From a virus, in the IMG/VR virus record IMGVR_UViG_3300033153_008400, positions 1-64,000 of that record: a DNA stretch of 64,000 bases; one strand, given 5' to 3'. Under the pieces are notes generated by a model that searched no databases, was not told where the DNA came from, and saw nothing but the letters and a program-made list of their open reading frames with translations. This document shows, piece after piece, positions 7,453-7,574 of this stretch (the stretch's first letter is position 1; each line of letters opens with the position of its first letter). The position numbers and the translations under genes are program-made.

Positions 7453-7574
7453 TTGTTGGAAAAACAGGATTTGAACCTGTGGCCTTCATTATGTTGAACC
7501 CAACGTCCCTTACGAGACGTTGCTGGAGTCGAACCAGCCTAGAATGACGCTCTACCGAACTGAGCTATTTTCCA
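7453..7574 (-). ncRNA. tRNA-like scaffold with a 52-nt structured insert in place of the anticodon loop
   Basis: Acceptor TGGAAAA/TTTTCCA, D arm GCTC/GAGC, stem TCATT/AATGA, T arm ACAGG-TTCAAAT-CCTGT; insert contains GCTGG-TTCGACT-CCAGC and AACGTCTC-GTAA-GGGACGTT. Confidence 0.75.

What the first reader, a model, noticed from the sequence alone, without database searches (positions are those of the whole stretch)
7453..7574. Second tRNA scaffold whose anticodon loop holds a permuted mini-tRNA (two-elbow RNA)
Seen: a perfect tRNA frame with a 52-nt insert (7491-7542): CTAG, a canonical T arm GCTGG-TTCGACT-CCAGC, an immediately following 8-bp stem AACGTCTC/GGGACGTT capped by a GNRA loop (GTAA), then GGGTTCAACAT. 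Established: a T arm followed by a loop-closed acceptor-like stem, entered through the anticodon stem, is the topology of the tRNA-mimic module of bacterial YrlA Y RNAs. Inference: a non-decoding RNA with two T-loops that could bind or sponge tRNA-recognising proteins. Together with the nested Lys gene, it suggests the phage uses tRNA frames as display scaffolds for cargo RNAs.
Basis: partly seen in the sequence, partly recalled or inferred. Interest (0 to 1): 0.8.

Follow-up and report, generated by a model that had tools for sequence, protein, structure and literature searches.

The report
Phage tRNA carrying a second tRNA-like elbow
An uncultured phage encodes a tRNA-shaped RNA in which a small capped tRNA-like module replaces the anticodon loop. 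It resembles the tRNA-like end of the phage's own ribosome-rescue RNA; similar genes recur in other phages and their job is unknown.

Summary
The RNA is a canonical tRNA body (Rfam tRNA 55.8 bits). A 52-nt insert replaces the anticodon loop: a canonical T arm, an 8-bp stem capped by GUAA, and a G-rich stemless strand.

It is not a YrlA Y RNA. The Rfam YrlA score is 13.3 against a cut-off of 69, the Ro-binding motif is absent, and the phage has no Ro60 gene.

The insert looks most like the tRNA-like domain of the permuted tmRNA 30 nt upstream, closed into a hairpin.

The nearest relatives of the phage lack the whole tmRNA-plus-chimera block, so there is no ortholog.

The same architecture does recur in other viral contigs. 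In six of those sequences, 18 of 35 pairs show compensatory changes. A model built from them, without the window, aligns this RNA end to end.

I found no splicing enzymes, RNA ligases or SmpB in the phage, and no RNA data. The function is inferred: a stable, non-decoding, tRNA-processed RNA that displays a second elbow.

A conserved N-A-C triplet beside the insert is unexplained.

This scan has reported similar nested tRNA-like RNAs in other phage genomes. Published parallels are T5 RNA2 and the 'enigmatic introns' of Lak phage tRNAs.

The parts
7456..7574 (-). Whole chimeric RNA gene (119 nt without CCA): a class I tRNA body whose anticodon loop is replaced by a 52-nt module
   Evidence: Rfam RF00005 at 55.8 bits, model positions 1-71. 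Model R1, built from analogues only, gives 60.4 bits over positions 1-124. Fold z = -3.71.
7568..7574 (-). Outer acceptor 5' strand UGGAAAA; pairs with 7457-7463
   Evidence: Direct reading; pair probabilities 0.69-1.0.
7549..7565 (-). Outer D arm GCUC-AGUUCGGUA-GAGC, with G18 G19, A14 and A21
7543..7547 (-). 5' strand UCAUU of the stem shared by the outer body (anticodon stem) and the inner module; pairs with 7486-7490
   Evidence: Rfam alignment. Not predicted by thermodynamic folding. The equivalent stem covaries at 4 of 5 pairs in the analogues.
7539..7542 (-). CUAG linker (variable-loop position of the inner module; its first two bases, C and U, sit where positions 32-33 of the outer loop would be)
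   Evidence: Direct reading.
7522..7538 (-). Inner T arm GCUGG-UUCGACU-CCAGC, with a canonical T-loop and a G53-C61-type closing pair
   Evidence: pair probabilities 0.81-0.97. Aligned to the inner T arm of model R1 with high posterior probability.
7502..7521 (-). Loop-closed acceptor-like stem AACGUCUC-GUAA-GGGACGUU (8 bp, GNRA cap). The hexamers CGUCUC and GGGACG are identical to those in the acceptor stem of the adjacent tmRNA, including its G-U pair
   Evidence: pair probabilities 0.81-1.0.
7491..7501 (-). Stemless D-loop-like strand GGGUUCAACAU. GGGUUCAAC resembles the tmRNA D-loop (GGGUUUUGAC in this phage). The last five bases A-A-C-A-U sit where positions 34-38 of the outer loop would be
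7486..7490 (-). 3' strand AAUGA of the shared stem
7464..7485 (-). Outer variable loop AGGCC and outer T arm ACAGG-UUCAAAU-CCUGU
7456..7463 (-). Outer acceptor 3' strand UUUUCCA and discriminator A. No encoded CCA (the next bases are CAA)
7605..7902 (-). Context: circularly permuted tmRNA directly upstream, the likely source of the inner module
   Evidence: Rfam RF04321 at 64.3 bits (cut-off 47). ARAGORN calls a permuted tmRNA with tag GKVITLFYAPVRQAA. Similarity scores.

Best explanation
This is a real gene for a non-decoding, tRNA-shaped RNA.

Structure:
- The outer part is a complete tRNA body: acceptor, D arm, T arm, and the nucleotides that make the tertiary contacts of tRNA.
- Like its neighbours in this roughly 1-kb RNA cluster, it is therefore probably cut out by RNase P and 3'-end processing and given a CCA end. 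This step is inferred.
- Where the anticodon loop should be, the anticodon stem opens into a second, circularly permuted tRNA-like 'elbow'. That elbow is a canonical T arm, an acceptor-like stem closed by a GNRA tetraloop, and a stemless G-rich strand placed to pair with the T-loop.
- This is the build of a tmRNA tRNA-like domain. In sequence it is closest to the tRNA-like domain of the phage's own permuted tmRNA, 30 nt upstream. It most likely arose by copying that domain into a tRNA frame.

Proposed action (inferred, not shown): a stable two-elbow RNA that binds, and so titrates or recruits, a host factor that recognises the tRNA or tmRNA elbow. Candidates are SmpB, an elbow-binding processing or modification enzyme, or a tRNA-directed defence nuclease. 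It cannot itself read codons, and its inner acceptor end cannot be charged.

It belongs to a recurrent, phage-restricted class of tRNA frames carrying cargo modules in the anticodon loop.
For: Shown:
- A canonical outer tRNA around a 50-nt insertion (Rfam 55.8 bits; element-by-element reading).
- The inner T arm and capped stem are predicted with pair probabilities 0.8-1.0.
- The inner module scores +13 against the T-arm-plus-acceptor and acceptor-plus-D-loop parts of the phage tmRNA. It scores -11 to -2 against the same parts of the 5 tRNA units of the cluster. For the 5' part, 78 of 2000 shuffles reach the observed score.
- The review PMC3968760 (passages read) defines the tmRNA tRNA-like domain as an acceptor stem, a T stem-loop and a reduced D-loop without stem, whose loop-loop contact is needed for SmpB binding.
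- Recurrence: the three-element pattern found 22 stretches in viral contigs. Among the 18 distinct sequences printed (one of them the window's own) have a well-formed outer frame with an inner T arm followed directly by a capped hairpin. L028/L108 add another.
- The same pattern gave only 2 stretches in 185,579 prokaryote genomes. Neither is well formed.
- In 6 analogues, 97.6% of cells pair, 18 of 35 pairs change on both sides, 0 of 500 shuffles reach this, and slid controls give 1-4 such pairs. This includes 4 of 5 pairs of the stem that closes the insert.
- Model R1, built from those 6 without the window, aligns window 7574-7456 over positions 1-124 at 60.4 bits, E 1e-11.
- Phage T5 RNA2, annotated as a 'tRNA-like stable RNA with unknown functions', also has two T arms.

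Inferred:
- Processing by RNase P and RNase Z.
- Binding of a protein.
Against: - There is no ortholog. The closest relatives (78-79% identity in the neighbouring 663-aa protein) align to window 7304-6514 at 81% but lack 8861-7305, which holds the tmRNA and both chimeric tRNAs. Selection on this particular copy therefore cannot be shown, and perfect stems could simply mean a recent origin.
- Thermodynamic folding gives the outer anticodon stem a probability of about 0 and prefers an alternative by 4.8 kcal/mol.
- An ordinary tRNA-Lys also scores 49.3 bits with model R1, so the insert adds only about 11 bits.
- The features of a tmRNA tRNA-like domain are only partly present. There is no GGAC before the T arm, the D-loop reads AAC where tmRNAs have GAC, the G-U pair is the second pair from the cap, and no Rfam tmRNA model matches at E up to 10.
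- In the analogues the capped stem is 4 to 12 pairs long, so acceptor mimicry is not a general feature.
- The five bases before the 3' strand of the stem read like positions 34-38 of a tRNA-Val. A pure decoy does not need this.
- No expression data, and no partner gene nearby.
Confidence: 0.45

Rival explanations
1. It is an interrupted tRNA-Val(AAC) gene. The 50 nt between positions 33 and 34 are an intervening sequence, removed by an unknown endonuclease and ligase to give an ordinary 7-nt loop C-U-A-A-C-A-U. This would be the same phenomenon as the 'enigmatic introns' reported in Lak megaphage tRNAs.
For: - The flanks of the insert (C-U on the 5' side, A-A-C-A-U on the 3' side) would rebuild a regular anticodon loop with U33 and A37.
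- The same holds in analogues L028 (UU + UACAU), L060/L087 (AU + UACAA) and L258 (UU + UACAC).
- 20 of 35 distinct frames with enlarged loops keep A-C at the places of positions 35-36, against 17 of 338 ordinary frames in the same loci.
- No ordinary tRNA-Val lies beside them: 0 of 24 ARAGORN calls in 6 loci, and none in two complete genomes of 254 and 271 kb.
- Devoto et al. 2019 (PMC6784885, passages read) report phage tRNA introns, one of which may itself encode a tRNA. They also report alleles with and without that insert.
Against: - No known bacterial pathway removes a 50-nt non-group-I insert.
- No Rfam intron family matches.
- No splicing endonuclease (PF01974) in 0 of 5 phage records. 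No RtcB in G000 or in 5 other records. No Rnl2-type ligase in G000. The Rnl1 searches rang nowhere, so they say nothing.
- A loop-closed module cannot be released by RNase P plus RNase Z.
- In many frames position 37 is a pyrimidine, which decoding tRNAs avoid. L249/L251 have C, not U, at position 33.
- A34 is unusual for bacterial tRNA-Val (recalled).
- In the window's 29 long ORFs, GUU is 33% of Val codons and GUA is 53%, which is neutral.
Confidence: 0.15
2. It is a recent, functionless by-product of recombination. A piece of the neighbouring tmRNA gene (T arm, both acceptor strands and D-loop, with the spacer lost) was captured in a duplicated tRNA gene and has not yet decayed.
For: - The block is absent from the closest relatives.
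- The inner module shares the hexamers CGUCUC and GGGACG with the tmRNA 30 nt away.
- The two chimeric frames are paralogues: UGGAAAA... and UGGAAGG....
- No exact match to either typed part of the RNA in viral contigs.
Against: - Chance capture would not be expected to give a perfect 8-bp stem with a GNRA cap, an intact T-loop and an intact outer body.
- The same layout has been kept with compensatory changes in unrelated phages, and the window RNA aligns end to end to their model.
Confidence: 0.15
3. After transcription the GUAA cap is opened by RNase P and the new 3' end receives CCA. This happens to M. smegmatis YrlA and to two-piece tmRNAs. The result would be a two-piece RNA with two acceptor ends that can be charged.
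For: - PMC4201824 (passages read) reports that M. smegmatis YrlA, which has a 7-bp closed 'acceptor stem', is cut by RNase P RNA in vitro, and is cut and given CCA in vivo.
- The neighbouring tmRNA is itself a permuted gene that needs such opening.
- Several analogues have exactly 7-bp closed stems: L252, L060:349-502, L028:7682-7829.
Against: - Here the stem is 8 bp and the loop only 4 nt, with no discriminator-plus-CCA-like bases.
- The same paper saw no cleavage of YrlA RNAs without a 7-bp stem.
- In the closest analogues the stem is about 12 pairs long.
Confidence: 0.08
4. It is a Y RNA of the YrlA type that tethers a Ro60 (Rsr) protein to an effector.
For: - The order of elements in the inner module is the same as in the YrlA tRNA-like domain.
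- The control genome Bacteroides thetaiotaomicron shows that some possible hosts have Ro60.
Against: - Rfam YrlA scores 13.3 bits against a cut-off of 69, and the match covers only the outer D arm.
- The GNCGAAN0-1G motif occurs 0 times in the 119 nt.
- No TROVE/Ro60 gene in the complete 122.7-kb phage record.
- A tRNA body stands where the Ro-binding stem should be.
Confidence: 0.03

Closest known systems
tRNA-like domain of tmRNA, in its permuted (two-piece) gene form (Rfam RF04321; review PMC3968760)
   Same: T stem-loop, acceptor stem with a G-U pair, and a D-loop without stem that starts GG. The gene order is T arm, 3' acceptor strand, 5' acceptor strand, D-loop. A helix leaves the domain where H2 does. 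In sequence it is closest to the phage's own tmRNA.
   Different: The acceptor is closed by GUAA, so there is no end to charge. There is no coding part. The GGAC before the T arm is missing, and GAC is replaced by AAC. No Rfam tmRNA model matches. The helix leads into a complete tRNA instead of pseudoknots.
YrlA bacterial and phage Y RNAs (Rfam RF02553; Chen et al. 2014, PMC4201824)
   Same: A circularly permuted tRNA-like domain with T arm and loop-closed acceptor stem, entered through a stem. Also found in phages. Non-decoding.
   Different: No Ro60-binding stem or motif, no D stem in the inner module, no rsr gene, and the Rfam score is far below the cut-off. The entry stem belongs to a second, complete tRNA.
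Phage T5 RNA2 and RNA1, annotated 'tRNA-like stable RNA with unknown functions' (NC_005859, 32959-33083 and 30501-30644)
   Same: RNAs of 125-144 nt inside a phage tRNA cluster. RNA2 has a tRNA-like acceptor, an outer T arm and a second, inner T arm on an extended anticodon arm. The function is also unknown.
   Different: RNA2 has no canonical D arm and no capped acceptor-like stem after the inner T arm. There is no detectable sequence relation (one search found no such match).
'Enigmatic' introns in tRNA genes of Lak megaphages (Devoto et al. 2019, PMC6784885)
   Same: Phage tRNA genes with conserved inserts that are not group I introns. One insert may itself encode a tRNA. No mechanism is known.
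   Different: Those inserts were read as introns of decoding tRNAs. The paper does not describe a permuted, loop-closed module (passages read; its supplements could not be seen).
Engineered tRNA scaffolds for recombinant RNA (abstract of PMC3401473)
   Same: A cargo RNA placed in a tRNA body so that the cell processes and stabilises it.
   Different: Man-made. Here the layout is natural, and the cargo is itself tRNA-like.

Membership tests
tRNA (Rfam RF00005) | Cloverleaf with acceptor, D, anticodon and T arms scoring above the gathering score | tested here: met
   55.8 bits against 29, model positions 1-71.
tRNA (decoding) | Seven-base anticodon loop presenting an anticodon | tested here: not met
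   The loop is 52 nt and structured. ARAGORN makes no call.
YrlA Y RNA (RF02553) | Match to the family covariance model at the gathering score | tested here: not met
   13.3 bits against 69, positions 63-81 only, on the outer D arm.
YrlA Y RNA (RF02553) | Ro60-binding module with the GNCGAAN0-1G motif (PMC4201824) | tested here: not met
   0 matches in the 119 nt.
YrlA Y RNA (RF02553) | Encoded next to a Ro60/Rsr (TROVE) gene | tested here: not met
   No PF05731 match in the complete phage record. The control rang in 2 of 14 genomes. The host genome is unknown.
YrlA Y RNA (RF02553) | Permuted tRNA-like domain: T arm, loop-closed acceptor stem, D arm | tested here: inconclusive
   The T arm and closed stem are present. 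There is no D stem, only a GG-containing strand.
tmRNA tRNA-like domain | Acceptor stem, T stem-loop and a reduced D-loop without stem (PMC3968760) | tested here: met
   Direct reading. Closest to the phage tmRNA parts.
tmRNA tRNA-like domain | Free 3' end with CCA that can be charged with alanine; G3-U70 | tested here: not met
   The stem is capped by GUAA. The G-U pair is the second pair from the cap.
tmRNA tRNA-like domain | Conserved GG-N-UUCGAC D-loop, and GGAC before the T arm (seen in 26 of 26 Clostridia-type tmRNAs that my script recovered from 31 loci, and in the phage tmRNA) | tested here: inconclusive
   GGGUUCAAC matches except for G to A. CUAG stands in place of GGAC.
tmRNA (Rfam tmRNA families) | Match to a family covariance model | tested here: not met
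   No tmRNA family at E up to 10 within 7440-7600.
Group I intron in a tRNA anticodon loop | Group I core (P3-P9), usually over 200 nt | tested here: not met
   The insert is 52 nt, and no intron family appears.
Archaeal-type spliced tRNA intron | Bulge-helix-bulge motif and a splicing endonuclease | tested here: inconclusive
   No PF01974 in 5 phage records. The bulge-helix-bulge motif was not searched formally. The tmRNA argues for a bacterial host.
   Full-length alignment 1-124 at 60.4 bits to a model built without the window. An ordinary tRNA also reaches 49.3 bits, so the margin is small.

The most novel reading that the evidence does not exclude
The N-A-C triplet kept beside the insert is the working part, and these RNAs are a family of tRNA-derived scaffolds that act on tRNAs or synthetases rather than decode.

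There are two forms of this idea:
- (a) The triplet and the intact outer body keep the RNA chargeable by ValRS (A35 and C36 are its main identity bases; recalled). The phage would then make valylated but non-decoding RNAs.
- (b) NAC is displayed like a codon. UAC, AAC, GAC and CAC are the C-ending codons of Tyr, Asn, Asp and His, so they are complementary to GUN anticodons. The RNA would pair with the anticodon loops of these tRNAs, in the way a T-box specifier does, with the extra elbow as a docking surface. That could shield or sequester the very tRNAs that colicin-E5-type nucleases cut.

In the window the triplet is AAC, which would match tRNA-Asn.
Probability: 0.15. Interest if true: 0.85.

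Novelty: new variant of a known kind. Interest (0 to 1): 0.6.

Why it matters
Phage tRNA clusters have been known for decades to hold stable tRNA-like RNAs with no assigned function, such as T5 RNA1/RNA2 and the T4 species 1 and 2 RNAs (the T4 RNAs are recalled). More recently 'enigmatic introns' were reported in Lak phage tRNAs.

This case adds three things:
- A clean anatomy: a tRNA whose anticodon loop is a closed copy of a tmRNA-type elbow.
- A plausible origin next door, in the phage's own tmRNA.
- A set of analogues with covariation.

Together these turn an oddity into a testable class.

If the RNA binds SmpB, an elbow-reading enzyme, a defence nuclease or a tRNA, it would be a new kind of phage counter-measure built from RNA. 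If it is spliced, it would reveal an unknown tRNA splicing route in bacteria.

It also shows that standard tRNA finders miss or mislabel these genes.

Tried and rejected
- **Close homologues.** Exact 22- and 23-nt stretches of the RNA found nothing in viral contigs. BLAST against cultured phages found only generic tRNA matches for the window cluster. It found nothing for two analogues and generic tRNA matches for a third.
- **Relatives through the neighbouring 663-aa protein.** There were 12 viral loci at no more than 45% identity, with no chimera. There were 40 metagenome loci. The best, at 78-79%, lack the block.
- **RNA evidence.** No RNA holder was listed, and no run at all was listed for window 5000-11000.
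- **YrlA, intron and tmRNA Rfam models.** No usable match.
- **Partner genes.**
  - TROVE, RtcB, RNA_ligase and SmpB are absent from the phage record.
  - The Rnl1 model rang in no control, so say nothing.
  - Splicing endonuclease and RtcB are absent from the other phage records searched.
  - Neighbouring proteins have no informative family.
  - In analogue loci, a crAss001_48-related protein sits inside the cluster. I could draw no conclusion from it.
- **Promoter and terminator scan.** Nothing above the shuffled expectation, and no terminator inside the cluster.
- **Codon usage.** It did not discriminate between the readings.
- **A narrower pattern for the closest analogue group.** It gave no new members.
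- **Bacillus-type tmRNA.** I considered that the inner module copies a Bacillus-type host tmRNA (recalled 5' end GGGGACGUU). The 61 genomes I could reach are Clostridia-type (GGGGGCG), so this stays untested.
- **Group C analogues.** For L248, L250, L253 and L262 I could not settle the junction pairing and left them out of the covariation count. L252, L256 and the window were also left out of alignment A2, because their hairpins do not align column for column.
- **Supplements.** The supplementary tables of PMC6784885 and PMC4201824 could not be seen. They may list intron sequences or phage YrlA RNAs that bear on the comparison.
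Full report
**Observation.**
- The finding lies on the minus strand. Reading 7574 to 7456 gives UGGAAAA-UA-GCUC-AGUUCGGUA-GAGC-G-UCAUU, then 52 nt, then AAUGA-AGGCC-ACAGG-UUCAAAU-CCUGU-UUUUCCA-A.
- Rfam's tRNA model aligns all 71 positions around a 50-nt insertion in the anticodon loop, at 55.8 bits against a cut-off of 29.
- The outer body keeps the bases used for tRNA tertiary contacts: U8, A14, G15 with C48, G18 G19, G26 with A44, and G53-C61. 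This is my reading; the contact list itself is recalled.
- The insert is CUAG, a canonical T arm (GCUGG-UUCGACU-CCAGC), an 8-bp stem AACGUCUC/GGGACGUU closed by GUAA, and GGGUUCAACAU.
- The whole RNA folds better than all 200 shuffles (z = -3.71).
- One caveat: the A-U-rich outer anticodon stem is not predicted by the energy model. Its pair probability is about 0, and an alternative local hairpin is 4.8 kcal/mol better.
- ARAGORN does not call the gene.

**Setting.**
- The window is the first 64 kb of a complete 122,743-base IMG/VR phage record. It has 30-37% G+C and encodes terminase, portal and major head proteins.
- All tRNA-like genes of the phage lie in one cluster of about 1 kb on the minus strand. 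In order, it holds:
  - a circularly permuted tmRNA (7902-7605, RF04321 at 64.3 bits);
  - this RNA;
  - a second tRNA frame that holds a complete tRNA-Lys(CUU) in its anticodon loop;
  - an unassigned 172-nt stretch;
  - a tRNA with CAU and an extended anticodon stem;
  - tRNA-Arg(ACG).
- The closest relatives I could find share 78-79% identity in the neighbouring 663-aa protein. They align at 81% to window 7304-6514, but have a different 563 bases in place of window 8861-7305.
- The tmRNA and both chimeric tRNAs are therefore an accessory block, and this RNA has no ortholog in the collections searched. Exact-stretch scans found nothing.

**What the insert is.**
- Its order of elements is variable-loop-like linker, T arm, 3' acceptor strand, cap, 5' acceptor strand, then a strand that starts GGG. 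That is a circularly permuted tRNA upper half without a D stem.
- The phage's own tmRNA, 30 nt upstream, has acceptor GGGGACG/CGUCUCC and D-loop GGGUUUUGAC. The insert has GGGACG/CGUCUC, including the G-U pair, and GGGUUCAAC.
- In a simple alignment score, the insert's two halves reach +13 against the tmRNA parts. They reach -11 to -2 against the same parts of the five tRNA units of the cluster. For the 5' half, 78 of 2000 shuffles reach the observed score.
- Of the 31 tmRNA loci fetched from Clostridia-type genomes, my script recovered 26, and all 26 show the conserved GG-N-UUCGAC and a GGAC before the T arm. The insert has the first in near-consensus form and lacks the second.
- No Rfam tmRNA model matches it.
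- I conclude that it is built like a tmRNA tRNA-like domain and was probably derived from one. It is not a functional tmRNA part, because the acceptor is capped.

**YrlA.**
- Rfam YrlA scores 13.3 bits against 69, and only on the outer D arm.
- The Ro-binding motif GNCGAAN0-1G is absent.
- There is no TROVE gene in the phage.

**Recurrence.**
- A pattern asking for a D-arm end, a T-loop only 8-18 nt later and a second T-loop 32-62 nt after that found 22 stretches in IMG/VR.
- The same pattern found 2 stretches, neither well formed, in one genome each of 185,579 prokaryote species.
- Of the 18 distinct sequences extracted, 12 have a good outer frame with an inner T arm followed at once by a capped hairpin. 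These include the window's own, and L028/L108 add one more. The other 6 differ or are malformed.
- The hairpin is 4 to about 12 pairs long and is capped by UUCG, GAAA, GUAA or longer loops.
- Other frames in the same phages carry different inserts at the same place:
  - a complete permuted tRNA with D arm (L060:349-502, L087:5897-6049, L028:7682-7829);
  - a bulged hairpin;
  - a 12-nt mini-hairpin;
  - a whole tRNA (L205, L157).
- L036 is a symmetric dumbbell of two tRNA bodies sharing one stem.
- For the six sequences closest in layout to the window RNA (L028, L060, L087, L258, L249, L251), the proposed structure pairs in 97.6% of cells. 18 of 35 pairs change on both sides, and 0 of 500 shuffles reach this. 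Sliding the partners gives 1-4 such pairs.
- The stem that closes the insert covaries at 4 of 5 pairs. The inner T arm and both parts of the hairpin covary too.
- A covariance model built from these six alone aligns the window RNA from end to end at 60.4 bits. An ordinary tRNA-Lys also reaches 49.3 bits, so the insert contributes only about 11 bits.
- This scan has noted comparable nested tRNA-like RNAs in other phage genomes.

**The N-A-C triplet.**
- In the window and in the closest analogues, the five bases just before the 3' strand of the stem read N-A-C-A-N. The one or two bases after the 5' strand usually end in U, as if the module had been inserted between positions 33 and 34 of a tRNA-Val.
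- Across all loci held, 20 of 35 distinct frames with loops of 12 nt or more have A-C at these places, against 17 of 338 ordinary frames. At least one of the 20 is a chance hit (the extended-stem CAU tRNA of L290). Many of the rest come from about three related phage lineages, so the count overstates independence.
- N takes all four bases, and position 37 is often a pyrimidine. This argues against decoding but for selection on A-C.
- The ordinary tRNAs beside these frames have GUN anticodons (Asn, Asp, Tyr, His) in 13 of 24 ARAGORN calls, against 167 of 1112 in the other 268 loci. None is tRNA-Val.
- Two complete genomes with such frames have only 5 and 7 ordinary tRNAs, none of them Val.
- I cannot decide between three readings: a relic of a tRNA-Val ancestor, ValRS identity bases, or a displayed codon that pairs with GUN anticodons.

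**Splicing.**
- No group I or other intron model matches.
- No splicing endonuclease, RtcB or Rnl2-type ligase is encoded by the phage. None of the first two was found in five other phage records with such frames. The Rnl1 searches are uninformative.
- A loop-closed module cannot be released by RNase P and RNase Z.
- Devoto et al. 2019 did report conserved 'introns' in Lak phage tRNAs, one of which may encode a tRNA, with insert-free alleles. A host-dependent route therefore cannot be excluded.
- No sequencing run could be listed, so expression and splicing remain untested.

**Verdict.**
- The anatomy is real. The architecture is selected in other phages. The YrlA label is wrong, while the 'second elbow on a tRNA scaffold' reading is reasonable.
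- My best explanation (confidence 0.45) is a stable, non-decoding, tRNA-processed RNA that presents a tmRNA-type elbow to a host factor. Its target is unknown.
- The rivals are an unknown kind of tRNA intron (0.15), a recent functionless recombination product (0.15), a two-piece RNA opened by RNase P (0.08) and a Ro60-bound Y RNA (0.03).
- The closest experimentally seen relatives in kind are the T5 'tRNA-like stable RNAs'. T5 RNA2 also has two T arms.
- My literature searches found no description of a permuted, capped tRNA-like module inside a tRNA anticodon loop.

Noticed in passing
window 7514-7945 (-): ARAGORN's permuted-tmRNA call runs to 7514. That is the last base of the inner 'acceptor 3' strand' of the chimeric tRNA, well beyond the Rfam tmRNA match (7902-7605). 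The program may have taken the inner T arm and strand for a tmRNA 3' end.
   Followed up: no
window 7305-8861 compared with L290:4265-4827 and L310: The 172-aa ORF, the tmRNA and both chimeric tRNAs form a block of about 1.56 kb. In the closest relatives an unrelated 563 bases (with a ~94-aa ORF) stand in its place. The flanks align at 79-81%.
   Followed up: partly
window 7486-7501 (-): GG.UUCA can pair with UGAA..CC (the 3' strand of the anticodon stem plus the variable loop). This gives a fold 4.8 kcal/mol better than the cloverleaf. It may be a folding-model artefact or a real alternative state.
   Followed up: partly
L060:53-1604, L087:5897-7164, L028:7682-9224: Clusters of four or five tRNA frames, each with a different insert in the anticodon loop and each keeping N-A-C before the stem. 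A gene for a crAss001_48-related protein (PF21825) sits between two of them.
   Followed up: partly
L086, L088, L133, L078, L062, L043, L021, L070 and others: Many viral contigs carry 61-65-nt tRNA-like genes with normal acceptor, D and T arms but only 12-16 nt in place of the anticodon arm. They are anticodon-less mini-tRNAs.
   Followed up: no
L036:11348-11467: A symmetric 'dumbbell': two D arms, two T arms, one closed 5-bp acceptor-like stem and a single shared stem AGCGU/ACGCU, with no loop remnant at all.
   Followed up: no
L345:2553-2690 (Anaerocolumna jejuensis DSM 15929 contig): The only hit in a cultured bacterium to the two-T-loop pattern. It has two D-arm-like and two T-arm elements with a closed 4-bp stem between them, but no matching outer acceptor. 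It may be a decayed or different relative.
   Followed up: no
window 7040-7120 (-) and L290:5017-5097: The tRNA with a 12-13-nt loop (extended stem, CAU anticodon) is conserved in the relatives at about 80% identity, unlike the chimeric tRNAs.
   Followed up: partly
loci with N-A-C frames (L028, L060, L087, L249, L251, L258): The ordinary tRNA genes next to the chimeras are mostly Asn, Asp, Tyr and His (13 of 24 calls). Their GUN anticodons are complementary to the N-A-C triplets of the chimeras.
   Followed up: partly
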